The position numbers and the translations under genes are program-made. A DNA stretch of 64,000 nucleotides from Moniliella sp. 'wahieum' (Eukaryota): the NCBI GenBank assembly GCA_003971905.1, contig RSEE01000109.1, positions 1 to 64,000 of the forward strand. The letters run 5' to 3'. Of the stretch, positions 18,705-31,763 are shown piece by piece (within the stretch, counting starts at the first letter, position 1; each line of letters begins with the position of its first letter). Below the pieces are notes generated by a model. The model made no database searches and was not told the DNA's origin. It saw only the letters and a program-made list of their open reading frames with translations.

Positions 18705-20613
18705 ATGTCCAACAAGTATGTCGAGGTGGCCACCGAGGAGCGAGCTGCCCGAGATGCAGGAGCTGGCGCGCTCCCACTCCATCCAGTCCTTCGACGCCGA
18801 GTCTGGTCCGGGCCCGGGCAAGCGCCAGCGCCACGTGTCTGACGGTCAGGCCGCGGGCGAGGGCCAAGGTCAAGGCCAAGGCGAGGAGGACACGTTGCCG
18901 CTGCCTATTGGTTTGGCCAGGGCACCTGAGCGACTCGAGCACAGCGCAGAGCGTACGGTGGCCAAGTTCTTTCATACCCGGCGCATTCGCTGGGTGTTGC
19001 TCGGGCTGGCACTCATCTTGCTTTTGCTCCTCGTTTCCGCCGGCCGCACGTCGTCGGCCCAGCTGTTGCGCGCAAAGCTCAAGGGTGCCGCTCAAGGGTG
19101 GGGGTACACCATCCCCCCCGACGCTCGCATTTATGCACATACCAAGCCCCAGTACGACGACCCGTTCAACCCCGACGACCTCACCTTTACCGAAGAGGAG
19201 TGCGATGCCTACTTTCCCGGGCTGTGGAAGGACGTGGACCGGAGCGTGGCTTACTACACTGAGCACCCGTACGTTTGTTCACCCTCCTCCTCTACGCCTT
19301 ACGCCTTGCGCCTTACGCCTTACGCCTTACCCCTCCCCCGCTGCGCACAGACGGTACTGACACTCCAGCAGGATGACCAGAGAGTACCTCGAGACGTCGT
19401 GTGACGATCCAGACATGACGCATATGCGCGTGAAAGTGTACAACAACCGACTGTACATTCTGTCCTACAAGCAATCGGACTTTACGCGTACGCAAGCGAC
19501 GTTGGCTCTGCTACAACAATCGATCATTACGGCGCGGGAGCCCTTGCCCAACGTGGAGTTCTGCATTGGGGTACAAGACTGGCCTGGGTCCGGCAAGTTT
19601 GGGTTGGACCGCGCTCCCGAGGTGGAAGATGTATGGCTTATGCCTGATTACGCGTTCCTGACCTGGCCCGAGCACGTGGGCACGTACCACGATGTGCGCC
19701 GTCGGATCGAGCAAGTGGAGCAGGCTACGCCCTGGGAGAAGAAGACCCCACGACTCTGTGGCGCGGCGCAATGGGCGTCGGCACGGCCGATCGAGAGGCG
19801 ATGGTCAAGGCCGCTCAGGGGTACCCTTGGAACGACATTAAGGCCGTCAATTGGGCCACAGGCGAAAACAGTATCAAGATGGAAGACCATTGCAAGTGGA
19901 AGTACCAAGGTTTTGCTGATGGAAACTCCTACAGGTACGTCGTCCTTTTTACTCGCTTGTCCTTTTCCCCGTAGTTTTTTTTCTTTGTTCGCCACCGCGC
20001 CGTTGGGGTCACACCCGCACGACGGGGCCTACGTCGCTTGGTCTGGTCCAAACTAGTGGTACTGACACACGTTTGATGGCACGCAACGCAGTGGTCGACT
20101 GCGGTACCTGCAAAACTGCAAGACGGTGATTGTCACGCACCGTCCTCGCTGGCTGCAGCACTGGACGCACCTGTACAACAGCGACTGGACATCAGCGGAG
20201 CAAAACATCGTGCTGATTCCGGAGCCGGAGGGATGCGCCTGCGCTGACGGAGGACGGCAAGTTGGCCGACGACCACGACCGGTTGTGGGAGCGGTTACCC
20301 GAGACGATGGGCGCGCTGCTACAGGACGATGAACGTGCAAAGCGGATCGCAGAGAACCAGTGGAACTTTTTCCGCAACCGCTATGTCTCCCCAGCGGGCG
20401 GCGTGTTACTGGCGCAAGGCGCTCAAGGGCTATGGCTCGGTACAGAACTTTACCGTCTCGATGGCCGGGACGGAAACGTCGTACGAGTCGTGGGTCACGC
20501 GCGGCGGGCTGCGCGACGCAACTTGGCGCGAAGGCATCCAGCGCCGCGCGGAGCGTGTGAACCTGCAGAGCAGGGATCTGGCAACTGGGAGCTGGCAACG
20601 TATGAACATGTGA
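18705..20613 (+). CDS. Glycosyltransferase family 90 (CAP10/KDELC-like) type II membrane protein (introns about 19269-19367 and 19935-20090)
   Basis: N-terminal TM (WVLLGLALILLLLLVSA), EEECDAYFPGLW, PLPNVEFC, WLMPDYAF, PWEKK..WRGA, MEDHCKWKY, YSGRLRYLQNC, WLQHWTHL, AKRIAEN..FFRNRY..CYWR. Confidence 0.85.
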
Positions 20614-21190
20614 ACACTGTGTTTTTTTGTTTGGGTGTGTGCGTCTGCCCATGCTGGTGGGGACGCGAGGTTGGGGCGGCGGTGGGCATGGCGTGCTCTC
20701 GAGCGCAGTGATAGGCACACGACAAGCGATAGTGTGGTGGGGGGCAGTGGTACCACTAGTGAGCAATCCTCAATCCAGCCAGCTGAGGGATTAAATCGAA
20801 CGCCAGAATACATCTCACAGGGGTGGTATGTGGGAAGGAATGGCCACACGCCCACTAAGGATTGCGTGGTGAAAAGGTATCACGACAGATTGTGGCTTCA
20901 CGATCGCACAGCTTCACTGGCTCTGTTATTCTCAGTTCGATTCTGGGCGCAGTCACTTTTTTGTGGGATGCAGCAATGCGGCACTGCTAGTTTGAAATTG
21001 CAGGCCCCCACAACCCGTCCCGCTTGCTCTTCGGTTCGTCCCGTCTGGGGCACCCAAGCCACATCGTCATCAACACAGCAGCACACAGGCATCCTCCTTT
21101 TTCTTCTTCTTTTTCCTTCTTCTTCTTCTTCTCCTCCTTCTCCATCTCCTTTTCATTCCCCCCCCCTCCTCCTTCTCCCCCCTCTGCGCC

Positions 21191-22594
21191 ATGCCACCGT
21201 GCGCGTGCTCGCCGGCGGCTCACGCGACACGCTCTTTCCCGTGGCGGTGAACACGACCTGCACCGCTGCCCATCCGCAGTAGCCAATTCGATGGTCTGGT
21301 CACTGTGCGCATCAAGAACTACCCTGTCCCATCCGCCACTGACGAGTCCAAGTCCGACGCGCTCTACTTCCACCTCGGCTACGGCACCCACGTCACCTGC
21401 AGCATCCAATTCCAAGGCCGCTTCCTCACCCCCGTCTCTGCCGACGACCTGCTCTGGGGCATCGAATTTGATGCCCCCATCCGTGTACGCTCTCTCTTTC
21501 ACCTTCTTCTTCTTCCTCTTCACCATCACCATCTTCTTCTTCTTCCTCCTCTTCCTCTCTTCTTCCTCTCCCTCCCTCCTCCCCCCCCCCCCCCCCCCCC
21601 CCCTCCCGCCTGCGCGCACTGGAACTAACCTAATCCGGGCTACCACAGGACAAGCTACCCTCTGGCACGTCCTTATCCCTAGCGGTCAAGTCAGTGAGCA
21701 TGATGGAGCCCAACCTAGCGCAAGGGTTGTACTCCGACACGCCCTGGGCATTTGCGCCTTAGTCACGGCCATGTCGCGGTTACGCGTCGCAATCCTCCCG
21801 AGTCAGAGTCAGAAGAAGCAGCGTGCTGGCCTCCGTTCCCTAGCCCGCTCAACGGAACGGCAATTGAGGACGACGTAGATGCCCTCCTGCCCCGCACCCG
21901 CACAGACGACACGCAACGTGTACGTTGCCAATTGGCTGAGCCTACCTGCTCACCTACCTCTCAGCTCTCTTCTACTTCTGCCTCTGGCTCTACCTGTACT
22001 TCTGCGTCTGCCTGTGGGTCTGGTTCTGCTCTGCCTGTGGGTCTGGCTCTGGCTCTTCCTCCGTCCCGGCATCAGCTTCTAGCTGTACATCTACTAATCT
22101 TGCAGCATCGGCACGTACTGTGGCTGGCTGCTCATACCGCCAATCGGGATTACAGGGGACCGGATCCGTCCATGGTGGAAGGTGCGCCTGCAGCGGCCAA
22201 AGCGCGTGTGGCCTACTTTTCCAGTCCGTCGCACCGGCAAGCCTGTACGTTTAAGCCCGAGATGCTAGTCACAGGCGACTTTGCCCATGGGATGGTGGAT
22301 GTGGCTGGGCTAACGTTGGAGGTACCTACGTTTGGCTTGGCGGCTCCGTGGGCATTGACGTTTGACTTGGCCCAGCACTGGTGCAACGTACCGCTATACT
22401 TTGTTGTGCGGCACAAAGCTCGGCCTGGTGCTCAAGGTTTTTTTTTCTGGTCCAGTACGTTGGGCTTGCCTTGCCGTGCTCCCCTAACACCTTCTCTTCC
22501 TCTTCCCACCTTCCCCCTCTGACCCCGTCCGAACCCTCAATACTAACCTACTTCTCCACCTAGGTTCACCCTCGTCGAAACATGTTTGAGCTAA
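21191..22594 (+). CDS. DUF1769 family protein (introns about 21485-21648 and near 22455-22563; frameshifted)
   Basis: RVLAG, RIKNY, TCSIQFQGRFLTPVSADDLLWGIEFDAPIR, AKARVAYFSSPSHRQACTFKPE..GDFAHG, W..PLYFV match the DUF1769 pattern as I recall it. Confidence 0.7.
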
Positions 22595-22628
22595 GGCACA
22601 ATCCGAAGGGGCGGTAGCGTGTTGTAGT

Positions 22629-22800
22629 GGACAGGCCAGGACAGACCAGGACAGACCAGGACAGACCAGGACAGACCAGGACAGACCAGGACAGACCAGG
22701 ACAGACCAGGACAGACCAACAACAAAGGCAAAAAAACGAGAAATGCAATGCAATGCACACAACGCAACGCAACGCAACGCAACGCAACGCAACGCAACGC
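22629..22800. repeat. (GGACAGACCA)9 followed by (AACGC)8 in a convergent intergenic gap
   Basis: 10-mer at 22629-22718, pentamer at 22761-22800. Confidence 0.95.
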
Positions 22801-22925
22801 AACCAAAACAAAGCAACCCCGAGCAAACCTGGTACCCAGCAGGGTGTGAGACTAGACTACCCATTCTGCTCGCGCGGGAAGGTATCATATATCAGGGGGC
22901 CAGGTCAGCCAGCATGGCATAGGGG

Positions 22926-25069
22926 TCAGTCTCGGTCTATTCGGTGCGAGACGCTCGGGATCAGGTTGGGCACGAGCCGAGGCCGAGGCAGGCGAAGGTA
23001 AAGCAGCTCCGCGCACGGGCGCAGGCGAGTCAGGGTCGGTCGAAACCAACTCCATAGGGGTGCACGAGGAGTAGCTGAGACCGAGGTACGGTCTCGCCAG
23101 CTCCCACTCACGCTCCCGCTCCCACTCCCACTCCCGTCCCCAGTTCCAGTTCCATTTGCGGCCGCGTTTCCTGTAGCCGTTGTTGTGGTCGTTGAAAGCC
23201 GGGTGGCGCTCCTGTTCTCGAGCTTGGGTGGGTTAGGCTTGGAATACAAGTGTGCGCCGGCGGACTTGCGAGCTACCTCGTCCAACGCGGGCGAGTCGGG
23301 AAGGCAGCGTGGGCGTGCGCCGCGATGAAGGTTTGAGGCGGGCGGTGGAAGATGGATCCGAGGGTGGCGGCGTGGAGGAGGAGTTGGTCCAGTAGGGCGC
23401 GGTCCATGCGGTCGGTTTCGGTGTTGATGGCTGGTTTGGGGGCTAGGACAACTTGTTTTGCCGCGCTTGGGTCGGTGGAGAGCATACGCCAGTACATGAA
23501 TCCTCGGTCGCGTACGTCAGGGTTTTCCACTTGCTCCGTAGCTGCTTTGAGAAGCTTGGGTACCATTTCCGATGCCACTGCGGGTCGTTTGAGGAAGAGC
23601 TTGACGGTAGCTGTGAGCAGGGCCAACTGAACCTCTGCCGGTTCGTCCAGGAAACCAAACAAAAAGTCCTCTAGCAACTCGTCGGCATTTTCAATCCGTT
23701 CCGCATACTCGCCCAAGATCCAGATCATGGCTGCCTTGGCCTCCATTTGGTCGAGCAAGTCGAGGTGGGCACAGAGACGTGGGATGGCGCCCTCGATTGG
23801 TTGGGGTACTTTCGGAAAATGTCCTTGAGCACCACGACGGCCTCTTGTACTACGTAGCTCACACCCGTCTCGACGAGTTGGAGCAGAGTGTGGACACAGG
23901 CATCGGCGCCTGCTGCGATTGATGGCCAACCGGCCAATGGACCGAACGGCCTTGCGAACAAAATCAATGTCCACCTCGGTAGCGTACTCGTGCAGTTCCA
24001 CGAGCACTTGACGAATGTTGGCCTCGGTGGTGAGGCGGTAGATGATTTCGAGCTTGGCCATCTTGACGTAAATCGGGTCATTGTATTTACAGAAAAAGAT
24101 ACGCACCTCGTTACGGAGGACGAGTGGGCGGCGTTGGATGATGAGAAGAATGTTGCGCAAGGCGACATACTGTACCTCGGGACCGCGGTTGAGCAGGGTC
24201 ATGAGTGGCGGACTCATTTTGCGCGCTAGCGCCTCCTTGACCTCGGCCGAGGCAATGTAATTCATCAGGTACAGCACTACCTTGGCTGCTGTCAGCACCA
24301 CGGCCGAGTTGGCCGAGCTGAGCCGGACTGCGACGCGTTCCGCCAAGATTTCCGCGTCGGCCACGTCGGTAGGCACAAAGAACAGCAGCGACTCGAGGAT
24401 GTACACTTGGCCCCACTCGGACGTGTCGGGGAGCGCCGAGACGAGTTTGGAGGCGACAGTGAGGTTGAGTTTGAGCTGGATGTTGTCGCTGCGCTCGGAG
24501 ATCTCGGTAAGCGCGGCGACCGCATTGGCCACGACGGTTGCGTTCGAGTCGGCGAGCAGATCGCGCAGGCGCGCAATGAGGTGGTGCTTGTCGGCCAGCT
24601 TGCGGTCGGCCATGTAACCTTGGCGACGGCGATGGCGGTGTCTTGCGCACGTAGGGGTCGGCGTCGCGGAGGGGTCTGGAGGGGGTCGATGAGCGCGTCG
24701 GTGATGACGGGCACCTGGATGGAGGACATGGTGCGGATGGCGAGGGCGCGGATGAGCGGGTTGCGGTCGTGGCAGTCGCTGAGGAAGGCGGGCACGGCGG
24801 AGTGGGCGAGCTCGTGGCGCGGGCGGGCGTAGTTGATGAGGTAGAGGTAGACCATCTTCTTGATGTCGAGCACCTGGATGTTCATGCAGGCGACGACGGC
24901 GGCAAAGAGGGAGCTCATGTCGTTGCCCATGGTCATGTTGGCGACGATCTTCTTGAGGCGGCCTTGCGGCGCGCCCAGGCCTTGTCCTTTTGTCGTCGGT
25001 GAGCTCGGCCTTGAGGTCGGCGGCGCGCTCGCGGACGAAGAACTTGGCGTCGCGCGCGGACTCGGCCAT
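22926..25069 (-). CDS. APL1: Adaptor protein complex beta subunit, probably AP-2 beta (frameshifted)
   Basis: DAKFF, LKKIVANMTMGNDMS, IKKMVYLYLINY, DRNPLIRALAIRTM, VVANAVAALTEI, EWGQVYILE, PEVQYVALRNI, FFCKYNDPIYVK, EYATEVDIDFVRKAVRSIG, NPDVRDRGFMYWR. Short C-terminus typical of fungal Apl1. Confidence 0.85.
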
Positions 25070-25265
25070 GGGGGTGGTGGGGGTATTGTGGGGGTATGTT
25101 GTGGGGGCTGCGCAGGCGGTGGAGTCGGGCGGCGGCGGGCGGAAATCGCAGGGCGGAACGGGGCGGCGGGGCGGGCGGGTTTCTGTTGTCGGCGAAGAAG
25201 AATTAAGAAGACGCATTTCTCGCGCCTCCTCGCCTCCTCCGTCCCCGCCGCTTCGTTCGTCCACG

Positions 25266-27785
25266 ATGGCTGGAGCTGTGCTGCGTGCTGCCGCGCCGCG
25301 TCCGCCGCCCGCCCGCCGCCGCCGCCACGCGCGCCCTCGCCACCGCCGCCACCGCCGCCCCACCACCGCCGCCGCGCCCGCCTACCCCGCCCTGCTCGCC
25401 CAGCTCGAGCGCGTCCGCGCCATCCTCGGCCGCCCCTCACCCTGTCCGAGAAGATCCTCTATGCGCATGTCCGCGACCCCGTCGCCGCCTTCGAGGGCGC
25501 CGGCCCCGACCCCAGCGCCGTCCGCGGCTCCCGCTACCTCCAGCTCAGCATCGACCGCCTCGCCATGCAGGGTGCGTTCTCTCCCTCCCTCCTTCCCCGA
25601 TCTGACTCCCCCCTCCGCTGCTGCCCATACTGACTCCCCCCGCCGCCCGCCGCAGACGCCTCGGCCCAGATGGCCCTGCTCCAGTTCATGACGTGCGGCC
25701 TGGAGCGCGTCGCGATCCCCTCGTCGGTGCACTGCGACCACTGATCCAGGCCTACCAGGGCGCCGACGCTGACCTGGCTCGTGCCCAGGAGACCAACGCC
25801 GAGGTGTTTGCCTTTTTGCGCTCGGCCTGCGCCAAGTACGGCATCGAATTCTGGCCGCCCGGATCGGGCATCATCCACCAGATGTCCTTGAGAACTATGC
25901 TGCGCCCGGTATGCTCATGCTCGGCACCGACAGCCACACGCCCAACGCCTCGGGTCTCGGCGGCTTGGCCATCGGCGTGGGTGGTGCAGATGCAGTGGAC
26001 GCCATGACGAATACCCCCTGGGAACTCATGGCGCCAAGGTGCTCAATGTGCACCTGACGGGCGAGCTGAGCCCATGGTGCTCGCCCAAGGACGTCATTCT
26101 CACCCTGGCCGGCCTACTTACCGTGCGCGGCGGCACGGGCAAAATCCTCGAGTACGGGGCCTGGGCTCCTGAACATGCCCGCTACAGGTCTGGCAAACCA
26201 TGTCCAACATGGGTGCCGAGGTGGGCGCACGACATCGGCCTTCCCCTACTCGGCCAAGATGGGCGAGTACCTCCGCGCGACGGCCGCGAGCACGTGGCCA
26301 GCCAAGCGGAGCAAGCTGCTGCCCAGGCTACCTTTCCGCCGACCAAGATGCGCAGTACGACGACGAGGTGCACATTGACCTGTCGAAGCTGGAGCCTACG
26401 CTCAACGGTCCTTTCACCCCGGACCTGTCCACTCCGCTCTCGCAATTTGTCGCGCGCGCCAAGGAGGACAGCCGGCCTCACCCGGTCGAGCTGACCGCCG
26501 CCCAGATTGGTTCGTGCACCAACAGCTCGTATGCTGATCTGGCGCGGTGCGCGTCGCTTGCGCGTCAGGCTACCGCGGCGGGCCTCAAGGCCAAGGTACC
26601 ATTTGATGTGACTCCGGGATCGGAGCGTGTGCGCGCGACAATTGAGCGCGATGGTTTGAGGGGGACTTGACCGCGGCCGGTGCGCGTGTTGGCCAATGCG
26701 TGTGGACCCTGCATTGGCCAGTGGAAGCGTACGGACCACCAGGGCGAGCAGAACGTGATCCTCACCTCGTTCAACCGGTAACTTCAAAGGTCGCAACGAC
26801 GGTAACGTCCAGACGTGGAACATGCTTACTTCGCCCGAACTTGTTACCGCCATGGCGTTTGCCGGACGTGTGGATTTCAATCCGATGACCGACTCGCTTC
26901 CCACTCCCGAGGGGAAGCAGTTCCGCTTCGCCCCGCCCGAGGGGGACGTGCTGCCGACCAAAGGGTACGACTGGGTGACCAATCTCTGACTCCGGCTGCC
27001 AACCCTGCGCCTCAGCCGAAGTGGCAATTGCCATCTCGCCCGAATCGGAACGGCTCGAGGTACTGCAACCGTTCTCGTCGCCGTTTAAGAATGGGCAGTG
27101 GGAGTTACCGCCCATGCGTACTTTGCTGCGCATCCGCGGCAAGTGCACCACCGACCACATTTCCGCGCCGGGCCTTGGCTCAAGTACAAGGGCCACCTGT
27201 CGAACTTGGCGGAGAACACGCTGATTGGCGCGTCGAACGACCAGACGGGCAACGTCAACTCGGCGGTGTGGACTACCAGACGGCGAGGAGGCGACATTCC
27301 ACAATTGCCAAGCGGTACCGCGACCGTGGCCAGGCATGGGTCTTGGTTGCGGACCACAACTACGGTGAAGGTTAGCGCGGGAACACGCTGCGCTCCAACC
27401 GCGTTTCTTTGGGTGCAACCTGGTTGTGGCTCGGTCGATTGCTCGGATTGCGAGACGAACCTGCGAAGCAAGGTGTTCTCACGCGCTCTTTGCCAACGAG
27501 GACGATTACCTCAAGATTGGGCAGGGGGATCTGGTCGAGACGGTCAACCTCAAGGACCTGATTGACCCGGTGAAGGGTTGCTCGATACCCAGGTGCGACT
27601 CAAGGTGACCAAGTTTCGCCCTCGGGCGAGGTGAAGGAAACGCTAGAGATTCCTACCAAGCACTCGCTCTCTGCCACCACCTTGCCTGGATCCGTGCCGG
27701 TTCGGCATTGAACTTGATCCGTGAGGCGGAGGCCAAGAAGTCGGTTCCGCTACTGCTGCGGTGCCCACGGGCGCGCGGGCGATGA
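25266..27785 (+). CDS. ACO2: Mitochondrial aconitase paralogue, Aco2/homocitrate dehydratase type (intron about 25572-25654; frameshifted); probably continues into mL40
   Basis: [33 protein letters not shown], Fe-S ligands GSCTN and [18 protein letters not shown]. Aco2-type residues WLKYKGHL and GEGSAREH (Aco1 has KFRGHL, GSSREH, DAT). C-terminal WIRAGSALN. Confidence 0.9.
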
Positions 27786-28459
27786 GCACGTTTGCGCGTG
27801 CGATGGGTACGCGCGGTCTGCACAACGTCGGCCGCTACGCGTTCCGGCACAAACGCGAGACGCGGGTCAGTCGCTGAACCCTTCTGACCCACGGTACGTG
27901 GCGCCGAGACGGATTCGCGGAGCAGAGCATTGTCGACCTTACCTTCCGCTTGTGCCGAAGGAGAAGAACAACATTGCGCATGACCCGTATGCCAAGCGCT
28001 TGGCCGTCGCCGAGGAGAAGCTGCCCTATGGTCCCGAAGTGCACGTGACGATCGTGCGTGCCTACCTGCTCCACCAGAGCGTGAGGGAGAAGCTGCAGGC
28101 GGACCTGCTGACCAAGTACCATGCTATGAAAGCGGGTGCGATGACCTCAAGACGTCCTTCCGCTCTTGCACCAGGCGCGAGCAACGTACCGGCCCACCCC
28201 ACAAGCCCGACGAGGTGGCCCGGTTGAAGCGGTACGGTCTGACGCCCGGTGCGCAGCTGATTCCCGAGTCGGAATGGAACGAGGAGACCAAGGCAACGCC
28301 CACCGTCTGCGTCCGATCTGGTCGTCCCCCTTCGGCACGGTCAAGGTGGTGCAGCAGGGCGGACGCCGTCGTCGGTCTCTTCCCGCGCGAATGGCGCCTC
28401 CCACCAAGACGCCTCGCCGCGAAGGCTGGCCGTCCTTCTCGGAGCCGGACCAGTTTTGA
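27782..28459 (+). CDS. MRPL28: Mitochondrial ribosomal protein mL40 (MRP-L28 family) domain abutting or fused to aconitase
   Basis: Frame-stitched EVHVTIVRAYLLHQ..REKLQADLLTKYHAMKA.CDDLKTSF.LLHQA and GLFPREMAPPTKTPRREGW align by eye with yeast Mrpl28 (HQTIEKCW..RERRNLQLELQYKSI..FPMEMKVPTDFPP..W, recalled). Preceded by an Arg/Ala/Ser/Thr-rich presequence-like segment. Confidence 0.75.
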
Positions 28460-28830
28460 GGTCAGACGCCGGGGAGTGGGCCCCGAAAAGAGACGGAATC
28501 GATCGATGCGCTCGTTATGTGTTGTGGTGTGGGTGGGTGGAAGAGGGTGGAGGGCAGGTAGGTAGATGGATAGTGGATGGATAGATGGATGGATGGAGGA
28601 GGGTACACAGGCGGGAGGGTGCTTTGCTTTTGGGTAGGTTGTAGCACGTGATGAAGATGATTCATGCATCATGCATCATCCATCATCCATGGCGCAAGAA
28701 CAAGAACGTCGGCCGGGCGAACCGACGAGCCATAGCGCCAACCCATCGCCATCGCCATCGCCATCGCCAGCTGCGGTGGGCCATCGATGCTTGGGCGCGT
28801 GTGTCGTGTGGCGACGAGGTCAGCGGTGCG

Positions 28831-31763
28831 TTACGAGTGTATCCAGCGACAACGGAGCATGAGCCACAGCCTCGTTATCGCACGCGTTCGACACGGGCAT
28901 CCACCTCGCGGCGCAAGTGAGCTCGAGACGCCCGGGCTGACCGGGCAGGGACTGACGGGACACTGTGTGCCGTGCACCGCTGGAGCGCCCGCGCTCGGCA
29001 CCGAGGAGACCACACGTTGTTCCGTGAGCTCAACCATCTCAGTGCGGGGCTGGGCTACGGCACCCAGCCGCCCCCAAGACCAAGAGTGGGAAACTGTCCA
29101 CGCGTCCGCGGACCGAGGCTGCATGGCGGATCCTGCCGCGCCCAGGCCCAGGCGGACCCTACGGCAGCCTACTTTGACCCGCTTGCCCTGGCTACCGAGG
29201 GGGAGGGCGCGACGTTCCCCCTGCTCAGCAAACAGTTTACTTTAAGAACTACGTGGCGACCATTGCGTTTACCAATGCTCTGCCGTCCTGGCCGAGGAGA
29301 ATGGGTCACCATCCGCAGCTCGTGGTCGAGTGGGGCCATGTGGGCGTGGCGTGGTGGACGCATGCGGTGGGCGGGGTACGTGCATTCCGGTGTTGCTAAG
29401 ATCGCCCAGAGGGTGTGGGAGAAGGCGGGGAGGGGAGGGGAGGCAAATGGAACAGAGGACTGAGTTTTACTGACCCTCTTCTATCTAACCTCGATCTGGC
29501 GTAGCTGCATAAAAACGATTTCATCATGGCGGCCAAGACAGACCAACTGGGTCAACATGTGGAGGGCATTCGGCTTGAGAATCTAAAATCCATCTCTGTC
29601 TCTTCATTTCTCGGTGCTCGACAGACAGGGTGGGTGGGGGTTAGGGGTTGGGGATTGGAAGTTGGACGTTGGGAAGAGGCGGGGAAGAGGGGCGTGGTCT
29701 TCCAGCGACTCAGCGCGCCGGACCAGGAGCAGGGGGGAGGAGAGGGCCGGTGGGCACGGTGCTCATGGCCTGGGACAGACGGAAAGCTTCGGCGACTTGG
29801 ACGCTTCCGGGACCCAATCCGCCTCAAACGTTCGCTCCTCGCGTAGTCGCGTCCCATGCCACTTGCCGCACTGCTGGCGCCGAGTGCGCGCGGACCGACC
29901 AAGCGCTCGAGATCGCGCGCACTACTCGCCACACACTCCTCCAACGTCGTCCCTGGGTCCGAGGCGAACCGGATCAAAAAGTCTCGGATCGACGCATGGT
30001 TCCGCACCGAGGCCGCCATGCCGGCAATCTGGTAAGTCAGTACCACAAGTAACGAGAGCAGGCGCAAAAAGTGGGCTGGGGGAGGGGGGAAGGGGAGGAG
30101 GGGAAGGAGAGAGAGGAAGAGGAAGAAGGAGAATCAACAACGTACCCGTTCGTCGATCTCGGCAATTTCCCGCGACGCAATCGACTGGGCATCAAAGCCA
30201 GCATACACATCGTGTGCCCGACGGAGGTAGTCGAGGTTGTCCAGATCCATCTCAAGGTCGTAGGCATGTTCCGCTCGTGGCCGGCACATCGGTCCGGATC
30301 CAGTACTCGATCACCAAGGGGGGCACGGGCTGGAGGAGACGAATGATCATCTCGGGCAGATGATGGAAGGAGACTTTGGCCGTTTGAAACAGCTGCTGGA
30401 GCGCCTCGTCGCACTTGACCATTCTCCGATCTTGTTCGTCCAAGAGTTGTGGTCGCGGATGTAGGCCCAAAGTGCTTCCATCACCTCGGTCCGCGTGCCC
30501 TGGCGCAGATCCAAAAGCTTGGCAAACGGCGGATGCAGAGCAAACTCTTCCCGATTCGAGGCGGGTAGAGATGCACCTTGGCCTTGACGGGTGCATCCCC
30601 ATTGCGCGTAATCTCAAACCCGTCCACGCCGGGCTGACCAAGCCCCTCGGGCGTCTGCTCCCACTTGATCACATTGCCCCCGTCGTTGTACAGCGTCGCA
30701 TCCCGCTCTAGCTCTACCACCACCATCTTGACCAGCTTGGAGAACTTGGGGGGCTCCGCTTCGCTTACCCCTTCCTGCCCCTCCGGGGGGAGGAGACGGC
30801 CTTGGATCTTCAGCGTCCAAGAAGGCGCAGCGGGGGGCGGGACCTGGTCTGGTTTTTGACCCGGAGCGTCCTCTCTTCAATCGGCTCTTGAGGCTGCTGT
30901 GGGGGTTGGTCCTGGGGTTGCTCCTGGGGCGGGTGGTCCTGAGGCGGCTCTTGGGGCTGATCTTGAGCCTGCTCCTGAACTGCTCCTGCGGTGTTTTGAG
31001 TCTGCTCCTGCGCCTTCTCCTGATCCTTTTCTTGTGCCTGCTCTTGTGCCTGCTCTTGGGCCTGCTCTTGGCCTGCTCTTGGGCCTGCTCCTGCTCCTGC
31101 TCCTCTCCTTGCCCGATGGCTGAGGCTGAGGCTGAGGCTGGACCTGCCACGCCTGGCCAGCCACAGTGTTAGAGAGAAGAGACGGAGAGTGCGTCGGATA
31201 TGAGGAGTGCCTGGCGCTGCTGCAAGCTCTGGAGCAGTTCAGCGCGTTTGCGCGCGACAGTCCAGTCGAGCTGGCGTTCCAGTGTACGCAGTTGAGCGTG
31301 CAGCTCACTTTCAGGCACGTACCCACGCACTGCACGGCAACGACCGGTCGGTTGTCCGGCCGCGCTTGGCTACGCGCAACCCTTCGCCCATGAGACTTTC
31401 GAGCGCACTGCGCTTGAGCACCTGTGCCGTACGTGCTTCTGCTCGGCGGCCAGTTGCTGCGCCGCCGCCGCCCGGTTGGCCGCCTCGTTGCGGAGCCTGG
31501 TGGGGCCACGGCGCGCGCCGGCTGGGCTTGGGCGTGGGATCGAGCTTGTGCTGTGCCTGGGCTTGGGCTTGGGCTTGGGCTTGAGCCTGAGCTTGGGCTT
31601 GGGCTTGAGCTTGAGCTTGGGCTGGGCCTGGGCTTGGATGGCCATGGCGCGTTGGGCATGCTGTGCGGGGTGGGCTTGGGCTTGGGCCTGGGCATGTGCC
31701 TGAGCCTGCGCCTGGGCCTGTGCCGGGCTGGGCCTGGTATGCTGGGCCCTGCATGGCGTTCAT
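28831..31763 (-). CDS. SNF12: SWI/SNF-RSC SWIB-domain subunit (Snf12/Rsc6/BAF60 family); 3' end uncertain
   Basis: LERQLDWTVARKRAEL, WTLKIQGRL, KFSKLVKMVVVELERD, DGFEITRNGD, SWIDEQDRR(M)VKCDEALQQLF, VIEYWI, IRDFLIRFASDP..VASSARDLE. Q/A-rich N-terminus. Confidence 0.8.

What the first reader, a model, noticed from the sequence alone, without database searches (positions are those of the whole stretch)
25266..28459. Probable Aco2 aconitase-mL40 (MRP-L28) tandem mitochondrial precursor
Seen: after the aconitase C-terminus ([18 protein letters not shown]) there is no 3'UTR, terminator or promoter. As assembled, the aconitase TGA (27783-27785) overlaps an ATG (27782-27784), and codon-like sequence continues to 28459, encoding a domain that matches mL40 (H.TI.RAY, LLTKYHAM, LFPREM.PPT.TP..EGW). 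One inserted base near 27743, the error type seen throughout this assembly, joins aconitase to the linker. Known: S. pombe Aco2 is fused to mitoribosomal bL21 (Mrpl49), and tandem mitochondrial precursors such as Arg5,6 and Rsm22-Cox11 are split after import. Inference: this lineage independently fused the same Aco2 paralogue to a different large-subunit protein, which suggests recurring selection to couple an Fe-S lysine-pathway enzyme to mitoribosome supply. I cannot confirm whether this fusion has already been reported.
Basis: partly seen in the sequence, partly recalled or inferred. Interest (0 to 1): 0.8.

Follow-up and report, generated by a model that had tools for sequence, protein, structure and literature searches.

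The report
Aconitase–mitoribosomal protein fusion in smut fungi
In smut fungi and their relatives (including Malassezia), one gene makes both a mitochondrial aconitase and a mitochondrial ribosome protein as a single chain that is probably cut in two after import, which parallels an unrelated fusion of the same aconitase to a different ribosome protein in fission yeast.

Summary
The window holds one Aco2-type aconitase gene (Lys at the yeast K610 site) that runs through a presequence-like linker into mitoribosomal mL40. The overlapping TGA/ATG comes from an indel in this copy: it carries 38 frameshifts, a second copy in the assembly breaks differently, and a close relative is one open 944-aa frame. 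Among 120 listed homologues, 53 have the same architecture; every named one is Ustilaginomycotina (Ustilago, Malassezia, Tilletia, Exobasidium, others), and the sampled ones form one clade. Homologues from other fungi are unfused. A profile of the C-terminal domain finds solved mL40 chains. The linker is 28% conserved, yet 53 of 55 linkers keep an R-x-[FY]-[SA]-[TS] peptidase-type site (shuffles 0.9), and 33 of 55 have no Met. Best reading: an obligate tandem precursor split by MPP (inferred, not shown). A lysine-pathway role and selection for coupling are untested. Ten literature searches found no report, but two key papers could not be read. The scan had not noted this fusion before. It is a new variant of a known kind, convergent with S. 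pombe Aco2-bL21.

The parts
25266..25344 (+). Start codon and predicted N-terminal mitochondrial presequence ([10 protein letters not shown]...), ending in an R-A-L-A-T MPP-type site at 25330-25344; frameshifted as assembled
   Evidence: Sequence. RALAT fits the yeast consensus R[AFR][FLY][AKLS][HSTQ] quoted in PMC5063612. Targeting is inferred; no predictor was run.
25266..25571 (+). Exon 1 (presequence and start of aconitase)
   Evidence: tblastn with P0003 and P0006 matches 25439-25741 across the intron
25572..25655 (+). Single 84-nt phase-1 intron (GTGCGT...CTGAC...CGCAG) between MQ-G and D-ASAQ
   Evidence: Sequence. The unspliced gene call P0281 has an insert at the same place.
25656..27740 (+). 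Aconitase body, Aco2 type (PF00330 + PF00694)
   Evidence: Pfam; 609 of 663 aligned residues identical to P0284, no in-frame stop on the best path; model of relative P0001 matches mitochondrial aconitase 7ACN, E 2e-67
27188..27190 (+). Lys codon in WLKY-K-GH, taken as the equivalent of yeast Aco2 K610 (Arg in Aco1)
   Evidence: PMC3556520 passage. The mapping of this motif to residue 610 is recalled; it agrees with the K/R split in the tree.
27741..27873 (+). Linker: internal presequence-like stretch (basic, Ser/Thr/Ala-rich, almost no acidic residues, disordered). One base is missing near 27750 as assembled, which creates the apparent TGA at 27783-27785.
   Evidence: pLDDT below 50 over residues 700-746 of P0001
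27776..27790 (+). First candidate internal MPP site, R-A-M-S-T; its ATG (27782) could also start a stand-alone mL40 precursor
   Evidence: The same R-x-M-S-T occurs in Acaromyces, Parajaminaea and Ceraceosorus linkers, where others have R-x-[FY]-S-T. Cleavage is inferred.
27812..27826 (+). Second candidate internal site, R-G-L-H-(T-T-S in the second copy), aligned with the RGYAT site of other Ustilaginomycotina
   Evidence: Non-canonical in this lineage (relative P0001 is one of 2 of 55 that miss the strict motif).
27874..28459 (+). Mitoribosomal large-subunit protein mL40 (MRP-L28 / yeast Mrpl28) domain with a basidiomycete-type insert; stop at 28457-28459
   Evidence: Profile A3 hits mL40 chains 6ywe_2 (E 2.8e-9), 5mrc_2, 3j6b_2 and mammalian mL40; the Jaminaea pallidilutea domain finds Rhizoctonia mL40 at E 1.5e-14; Pfam on homologues

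Best explanation
One gene, ancestral in Ustilaginomycotina, encodes a precursor of about 1,030-1,050 residues: N-terminal presequence, Aco2-type Fe-S aconitase, internal presequence-like linker, mL40. Shown: the architecture, its spread, the Aco2 and mL40 identities, and the conserved linker motif. Inferred: the chain is imported into the matrix on the N-terminal presequence; MPP removes that presequence and cuts again in the linker (once, or twice where two sites exist, cutting the linker out as in Atp25), and Icp55 or Oct1 trims the new end; free Aco2 takes up its 4Fe-4S cluster and free mL40 joins the large subunit. The linker is most simply the old mL40 presequence, so an in-frame joining of two mitochondrial precursors worked at once. 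Because this seems to be the only mL40 gene and most linkers have no start codon, the fusion is then hard to undo. The frameshifts in the window, including the one at the junction, are most likely assembly errors.
For: Continuous frame in close relatives: P0001, P0283, P0284 and P0286, 944-950 aa, one cluster. 53 of the 120 listed homologues carry a tail of at least 200 aa after the aconitase end, and all named ones are Ustilaginomycotina. Of the 63 lower-ranked others, none exceeds 826 aa or has PF09812, and the 33 with a locatable aconitase end have tails of 6-17 aa. MRP-L28 is found at E up to 0.1 in 44 of 48 scanned. The domain profile gives 11 PDB matches at E up to 1, the top 9 all mL40. 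The 22 Ustilaginomycotina rows form one clade (SH-aLRT 100) inside the Lys-type Aco2 clade (quick tree). A metagenome contig holds the fusion as one intron-free 1,166-codon frame, while 27 of 28 mL40 loci (26 closer to Rhizoctonia mL40 than to the Ustilago domain by E-value; L064 likewise) show no aconitase in the DNA held. Linker: mean identity 28% against 76% (aconitase) and 43% (mL40), but the Arg column is 100% filled. R.[FY][SA][TS] is in 53 of 55 linkers (shuffles mean 0.9, max 7; 0 of 570 aconitase windows). Acidic residues are 3% against 12%. 33 of 55 linkers have no Met and 15 of 55 have two or more sites. RSY and RGY were the predicted internal sites of Arg5,6, with RSY the one used (PMC8734313 passages). 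The linker is disordered in the model. Error pattern: 35 of 38 frameshifts are deletions, with no in-frame stop; the second copy has 9, with the opposite offset at the junction.
Against: No processing, transcript or proteomic data. The window's own lineage has the least canonical sites (RAMST, RGLHT) and an in-frame Met that could start a separate mL40 precursor. The published yeast consensus taken literally matches only 17 of 55 linkers (shuffles 0.7); 53 of 55 with its second position freed (shuffles 2.4; 19 of 570 aconitase windows). The wider motif that gave 55 of 55 was widened after seeing the data. Only 1 of the 48 proteins passes Pfam's MRP-L28 cut-off. S. pombe Aco2-Mrpl49 is treated as a fusion protein that purifies with large-subunit proteins (PMC8258696 passages), so cleavage is not a given for an Aco2 fusion. 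The window copy has more indels in this gene (24 in 2.1 kb; 17 in 0.7 kb) than in neighbouring beta-adaptin (11 in 2.1 kb). One stand-alone mL40 gene call from the window's lineage exists (P0232).
Confidence: 0.72

Rival explanations
1. The fusion is real but stays uncut, or largely uncut: mL40 tethers Aco2 to the large subunit through a flexible linker, and the motif is a leftover or only a partial-cleavage site.
For: S. pombe Aco2-Mrpl49-FLAG pulls down large-subunit proteins (PMC8258696). The disordered linker of 35-96 aa could act as a tether. An Aco2-mitoribosome interaction in S. cerevisiae is cited in bioRxiv 10.1101/2019.12.16.879015.
Against: A leftover motif would not be kept in 53 of 55 linkers that share only 28% identity. 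The linker composition is that of a presequence, and internal MPP sites of this type are cut in Arg5,6 and Atp25.
Confidence: 0.12
2. The two products come mainly from RNA-level routes rather than proteolysis: internal polyadenylation gives Aco2 alone, as in S. pombe, and/or an internal start site gives mL40 from the Met at 27782. In the extreme, this species has two overlapping genes.
For: Internal polyadenylation is described for S. pombe aco2. The Met at 27782 begins a good presequence ([14 protein letters not shown]...). Gene calls starting at this Met (P0285) and a stand-alone mL40 (P0232) exist in this lineage.
Against: 33 of 55 linkers have no Met. The conserved position holds Tyr, Phe, Met or Leu, so no UAU/UAC codon is kept for a UA+poly(A) stop. 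The TGA is specific to this copy, and relatives are open through the junction. P0285 lies on a 1.5-kb contig and is probably a fragment.
Confidence: 0.08
3. The fusion is real in the clade, but the window's copy is a decaying duplicate, and the C160 copy is the working gene.
For: 38 frameshifts against 9 in the C160 copy; indel density is 2-4 times that in the window's beta-adaptin; the assembly holds paired loci about 95% identical, so a spare copy exists.
Against: Indels equal or outnumber substitutions, 35 of 38 are deletions, and there is no nonsense codon. Codon differences between the copies away from indels are 17 synonymous and 10 non-synonymous, most of the latter clustered beside misaligned stretches. 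The C160 copy, beta-adaptin and most other aconitase loci are frameshifted too. Three short near-identical contigs of run X1 (depth 2-4, so weak) differ from the window by indels at several of these places.
Confidence: 0.08

Closest known systems
Schizosaccharomyces Aco2-bL21 (Aco2-Mrpl49) fusion (bioRxiv 10.1101/2019.12.16.879015, whole text read; PMC8258696, passages; Jung et al. 2015, not available, known through these)
   Same: The same aconitase paralogue (Aco2) is N-terminal, a mitoribosomal large-subunit protein is C-terminal, and a fast-evolving linker joins them.
   Different: The partner is mL40, not bL21; a different phylum and an independent origin. The S. pombe fusion is confined to one genus, this one spans the sampled subphylum. 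S. pombe uses internal polyadenylation; here the conserved linker feature is a peptidase-type motif. Whether the S. pombe linker has such a motif was not tested.
Mitochondrial tandem precursors split by MPP: Arg5,6, Atp25 (Rsf + M domain), S. pombe Rsm22-Cox11 and Etp1, rice RPS14 fusion (PMC8734313 and PMC5063612, passages)
   Same: An N-terminal presequence plus an internal presequence-like linker with an R-x-aromatic site (RSY/RGY in Arg5,6); often two internal sites (Atp25); often one partner belongs to the mitoribosome.
   Different: A new pair of partners, not found in PMC8734313 (no occurrence of aconitase, Aco2 or Ustilago in its main text). Cleavage here is predicted, not shown.
Fungal Aco2 clade (S. 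cerevisiae Aco2, homocitrate dehydratase; Aspergillus AcoB) (PMC3556520, abstract and one passage)
   Same: Lys at the K610-equivalent site, conserved Fe-S and catalytic motifs, and grouping with proteins named homocitrate dehydratase.
   Different: A C-terminal extension of 200-310 aa. Substrate unknown: yeast Aco2 serves lysine synthesis, filamentous AcoB was inactive, and a Cryptococcus protein called Aco2 showed aconitase activity (bioRxiv 10.64898/2026.08.26.747313, passages; its orthology was not tested here).
Stand-alone fungal mL40 (MRP-L28, PF09812; yeast Mrpl28; Rhizoctonia P0123)
   Same: Long helix with H-x-T-I-x-R-A-W and the C-terminal FPRE-x-R-x-P-T motif; the position of RGYAT matches the end of the Rhizoctonia N-terminal extension.
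   Different: Encoded behind aconitase instead of by its own gene; an insert of about 55 residues relative to yeast between helix and FPRE motif.

Membership tests
Aco2 clade of fungal mitochondrial aconitases | PF00330 + PF00694 with Fe-S cysteine and catalytic motifs | tested here: met
   ACGPCIGQW in 53 of 55 and GEGSAREHA in 55 of 55 fused homologues
Aco2 clade of fungal mitochondrial aconitases | Lys in place of Aco1 Arg604 (Aco2 K610) and grouping apart from Aco1 | tested here: met
   WLKYKGH in the window and C160, WLKYRGH in nine other loci; tree splits K from R rows with support 100 (quick search, midpoint root). S. cerevisiae and S. pombe proteins were not in the tree; Trichomonascus and Diutina proteins named homocitrate dehydratase stood in.
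Aco2 clade of fungal mitochondrial aconitases | Homocitrate dehydratase activity / role in lysine synthesis | not testable with these tools
   Not general within the clade (PMC3556520 abstract)
mL40 (MRP-L28, PF09812) | Pfam MRP-L28 score above the curated cut-off (28.4 bits) | tested here: inconclusive
   None on raw window frames; 18.7 bits on the C160 frame; hits in 44 of 48 homologues, 1 over the cut-off; P0165, P0200, P0201 and P0281 over the cut-off, P0068 at it
mL40 (MRP-L28, PF09812) | Homology to solved mL40 chains and to a named stand-alone mL40 | tested here: met
   Top 9 of 11 PDB matches are mL40 (the profile held 8 fused domains plus Rhizoctonia mL40); a fused domain alone finds Rhizoctonia mL40 at E 1.5e-14
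mL40 (MRP-L28, PF09812) | Incorporation into the mitoribosomal large subunit | not testable with these tools
   Inferred from it being the only mL40 found in the assembly
Mitochondrial tandem (composite) precursors | One open reading frame for two unrelated matrix proteins | tested here: met
   Open in relatives and in contig L039; not open in either copy of this assembly as it stands
Mitochondrial tandem (composite) precursors | Internal presequence-like stretch with an MPP motif at the junction | tested here: met
   53 of 55 by pattern against shuffles and body windows; composition. TargetP and MitoFates were not available; the window's lineage has non-canonical sites.
Mitochondrial tandem (composite) precursors | Actual cleavage into two mature proteins after import | not testable with these tools
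   Needs import assays or proteomics
Schizosaccharomyces Aco2-bL21 fusion (as an orthologous fusion) | bL21 (Mrpl49) as C-terminal partner | tested here: not met
   The partner is mL40; analogous, not the same fusion
Schizosaccharomyces Aco2-bL21 fusion (as an orthologous fusion) | Internal polyadenylation that yields aconitase alone | not testable with these tools
   No RNA data were at hand

The most novel reading that the evidence does not exclude
Fungal Aco2 has a conserved, possibly non-catalytic job in building or running the mitochondrial large ribosomal subunit (for example chaperoning, RNA binding or Fe-S/iron-linked control of assembly). That is why the same paralogue was fused independently to two different large-subunit proteins (bL21 in fission yeasts, mL40 in smut fungi) and why it persists in fungi where it has no clear enzymatic role. 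The fusion would act as a one-to-one co-import device, cut by MPP, and a lineage with a duplicated genome may have split it again by complementary loss (P0002 and P0232).
Probability: 0.25. Interest if true: 0.82.

Novelty: new variant of a known kind. Interest (0 to 1): 0.62.

Why it matters
It adds a subphylum-wide case to the short list of mitochondrial tandem precursors, and it is a second, independent fusion of the same aconitase paralogue to a mitoribosomal large-subunit protein. That repeat makes two open questions testable: what fungal Aco2 does outside budding yeast, and why tandem precursors so often contain a mitoribosomal protein (coupling, shielding from cytosolic ribosomes, or chance lock-in). 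It has practical effects too. The named public records call these proteins only aconitate hydratase, homoaconitase or hypothetical, so mL40 looks missing from Ustilago and Malassezia gene lists, and a deletion of 'aco2' there would also remove a ribosomal protein. The fusion is also a candidate shared derived character for Ustilaginomycotina.

Tried and rejected
Pfam on the raw window frames: no MRP-L28 hit, put down to frameshifts and the weak fit of this model to basidiomycetes. A homologue search with the window's 94-aa mixed-frame piece among longer proteins found nothing. Sequencing runs: one small-share holder, no RNA holder listed. Laying it gave 23 short contigs, mostly other organisms' aconitases, with no cover of 27520-28274, so the junction could not be polished. 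The bacterial promoter/terminator scan does not apply to a fungus and showed nothing above shuffles. The fold search of the whole model returned only aconitase-family folds as significant and did not test mL40. Long mL40 hits were checked for other fusions: P0173 is a bacterial repeat protein (false hit); P0217 (mL40 + SH3) and P0257 (Nup188 + a short mL40-like end) are single gene calls, probably merged, and were not pursued. Five of six Ustilaginomycotina-like short mL40 hits were rejected as stand-alone genes: P0165, P0200 and P0201 carry aconitase sequence, P0172 clusters with a 1,092-aa member, and P0218 starts inside the Moesziomyces-type linker and looks frameshifted. The likeness of the P0232 N-terminus to the window's Aco2 start ranks first of 291 but only just (24 against 22), so it is not counted. 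The careful tree did not finish; the quick tree is used. Literature: ten full-text searches found no description of an aconitase-mL40 fusion. Jung et al. 2015 and Leonard and Richards 2012 (a survey of fungal gene fusions, whose supplement may list it) are not held. Two look-ups in the scan's own notes found nothing on this fusion. No complex prediction was run, since no binding is claimed.
Full report
Observation. The gene starts at 25266, has one 84-nt intron (25572-25655), and its aconitase part ends at about 27740. In the assembled aconitase frame a TGA at 27783-27785 overlaps an ATG at 27782-27784, and coding-like sequence runs on in changing frames to a TGA at 28457-28459. Pfam finds Aconitase and Aconitase_C on the upstream pieces but no MRP-L28 on any of the 15 raw frames given.

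The break is an indel, most likely an assembly error. A frameshift-aware alignment of exon 2 to the relative P0284 needs 38 shifts, 35 of them deletions, and meets no in-frame stop; the junction event is a one-base deletion at about 27751. The assembly (69.5 Mb, 223 contigs) holds a second copy on contig C160, 94-95% identical with gaps counted. It has 9 shifts, and at the junction it is off by +1 where the window is off by -1, so its aconitase frame stops elsewhere. A shared programmed frameshift or a shared stop/start overlap is therefore excluded. Three events lie within three codons in both copies; the one with the same position and sign involves different missing bases. Between the copies, away from indels, 561 codons are the same, 17 differ synonymously and 10 non-synonymously. 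Against this, the window copy has more gaps in this gene than in neighbouring beta-adaptin (24 in 2.1 kb and 17 in 0.7 kb, against 11 in 2.1 kb), so decay of this one copy is not fully excluded.

The fusion is shared across Ustilaginomycotina. A search with a 135-aa aconitase piece listed the best 120 of 7,497 hits. Ranks 1-56 and 68 hold 53 proteins with a tail of 203-311 aa after the aconitase end, one truncated relative (P0002) and three fragments without that end. All named ones are Ustilaginomycotina: Tilletiaria, Pseudozyma, Violaceomyces, Thecaphora, Acaromyces, Malassezia, Ustilago, Testicularia, Moesziomyces, Kalmanozyma, Jaminaea, Parajaminaea, Sympodiomycopsis, Tilletia, Exobasidium and Ceraceosorus; cluster look-ups add U. 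maydis, Sporisorium, Melanopsichium and Tilletiopsis. The other 63 (Agaricomycotina, Rhodosporidiobolus, budding yeasts, Rhizopus, unnamed) are at most 826 aa; the 33 whose aconitase end my pattern located have tails of 6-17 aa. The closest full-length relative, P0001 (944 aa from an internal Met after the intron), is open through the junction and ends in the same FSEPDQF. In a quick maximum-likelihood tree of 51 aconitase domains, the 22 Ustilaginomycotina rows (21 fused plus P0002) form one clade with support 100, and the window's relatives sit next to Tilletiaria (98) on a long branch. The genus was not determined. One origin in the ancestor of the subphylum is the simplest reading; only the top of the hit list was seen, so unfused members cannot be ruled out.

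Identity of the parts. The aconitase has Lys in WLKY-K-GH, as do all fused homologues in which the motif was found; nine other loci of this assembly have Arg, and the tree separates K from R rows. Fazius et al. (PMC3556520; abstract and one passage read) give K610 against R604 as the one catalytic-site difference between yeast Aco2 and Aco1. That this motif is that residue is recalled. The C-terminal domain hits MRP-L28 in 44 of 48 homologues scanned (E up to 0.1), but only one passes the curated cut-off. A fused domain finds Rhizoctonia stand-alone mL40 at E 1.5e-14. A profile of eight fused domains plus that protein matches mL40 chains of Neurospora, yeast, human and pig as the top 9 of 11 PDB hits, best E 2.8e-9. 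The AlphaFold model of P0001 shows the aconitase fold (7ACN, E 2e-67), a disordered stretch at 700-746 and the long mL40 helix at 797-839. In the assembly, searches by family, DNA and two proteins found mL40 only at C109 and C160, both behind Aco2; one further match on C66 at E 2.3 is not significant. These searches score only the best candidates, so a very divergent copy could be missed. Of 28 metagenome mL40 loci, one (Tilletia-like) is a single 1,166-codon fusion frame, and 27 show no aconitase in the DNA held, though several have short flanks.

Mechanism. The linker (35-96 aa) is 28% identical on average, against 76% for aconitase and 43% for mL40. It has 3% acidic residues against 12% in aconitase, and is rich in Ser, Thr, Ala, Gly and Arg. 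Yet 53 of 55 linkers hold R-x-[FY]-[SA]-[TS], mostly RGYAT or RAFST; 1,000 shuffles give a mean of 0.9 (max 7), and 0 of 570 aconitase windows have it. The 55 are related sequences, so the counts are not independent. A wider pattern, widened after seeing the data, gives 55 of 55. The yeast consensus quoted by Woellhaf et al. (PMC5063612, passages) matches 17 of 55 literally and 53 of 55 with its second position freed. Friedl et al. (PMC8734313, passages) found RSY and RGY as candidate internal sites in Arg5,6 and showed cleavage at RSY. In Atp25 two internal cuts remove the linker, and 15 of 55 linkers here have two or more sites. 33 of 55 linkers contain no Met, so in most species mL40 cannot be made with its own presequence. 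The site aligns with the end of the N-terminal extension of Rhizoctonia mL40, which suggests the linker is the former mL40 presequence. I infer import on the N-terminal presequence, internal cleavage by MPP and trimming, giving free Aco2 and free mL40. The window's lineage is the weakest case: its sites read RAMST and RGLHT(T-S), the second fitting the MPP-plus-Oct1 pattern as I recall it, and its Met could start a separate precursor.

Why Aco2? Sun, Roy and Anderson (bioRxiv 10.1101/2019.12.16.879015, whole text read) confine Aco2-L21 to Schizosaccharomyces, cite an interaction of yeast Aco2 with the mitoribosome, and note that Aco2 of filamentous fungi is not needed for lysine synthesis; they do not mention basidiomycetes. 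A Cryptococcus protein called Aco2 converts isocitrate to citrate in vitro (bioRxiv 10.64898/2026.08.26.747313, passages; orthology not checked). So 'lysine-pathway enzyme' is not established here. Three accounts remain: functional coupling of Aco2 to the large subunit; shielding of a ribosomal protein from cytosolic ribosomes (proposed in PMC5063612); and chance fusion locked in by an essential partner. The recurrence of the same paralogue in two phyla favours, but does not prove, the first.

A lead against strict coupling. P0232 (260 aa, 76% identical to the mL40 part of P0001) is a stand-alone mL40 with its own presequence, and P0002 (90% identical in aconitase) stops just after the linker; their linker ends are alike. 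If they come from one species with a duplicated genome, the fusion has been split again by complementary loss. Both are single unnamed gene calls without DNA context, so this is unverified.

Novelty and verdict. The architecture already sits in public protein sets, some with PF09812 precomputed, but the names given there mention only aconitase or nothing. Ten full-text searches found no description. Jung et al. 2015 and Leonard and Richards 2012 were not available, and their text or supplements could hold a mention; no supplementary files were read. PMC8258696 was read in passages; other papers were seen only as search listings. The scan's earlier notes hold nothing on this fusion. Verdict: a real, subphylum-wide Aco2-mL40 fusion (about 0.95), probably an MPP-split tandem precursor (about 0.72 overall); a new variant of a known kind; interest 0.62.

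Noticed in passing
G000 contigs C119, C59, C20, C109 (171 kb), C12, C97, C31, C56, C95 (L030-L038): Nine Arg-type (Aco1) aconitase loci, 84-95% identical in DNA, several in pairs of about 95% with matching flanks (C119/C31, C59/C56, C97/C95), against two Aco2-mL40 loci: a large Aco1 expansion on top of a duplicated or hybrid genome.
   Followed up: partly
window 19555-29414 against G000:C160:36000-45999 (L029): A collinear second copy of the whole region, 92% identical with gaps counted; the assembly looks like a hybrid or polyploid with unpolished long-read indels.
   Followed up: partly
proteins P0232 and P0002 (unnamed public records): A stand-alone mL40 with its own presequence and an Aco2 that stops after the linker, both from the window's lineage; possible secondary fission by complementary loss. 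DNA context was not available.
   Followed up: partly
window about 23,000-25,070, minus strand: Beta-adaptin (AP complex) gene, frameshifted, head to head with the fusion gene across about 195 bp, so probably a shared bidirectional promoter.
   Followed up: no
window about 29,500-31,200, minus strand: SWIB/MDM2-domain gene (Snf12/BAF60-like), convergent with the fusion gene, next to a Gln/Glu-rich repeat stretch at about 30,900-31,100.
   Followed up: no
alignment A3, profile positions 104-162; window about 28,170-28,370: Basidiomycete mL40 has an insert of about 55 residues between the long helix and the FPRE motif, where yeast has a few; it is longest in the window's lineage and Tilletia.
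   Followed up: no
proteins P0217 (378 aa) and P0257 (1,608 aa): Gene calls joining mL40 to an SH3 domain, and a Nup188-like protein to a short mL40-like end; probably merged predictions.
   Followed up: no
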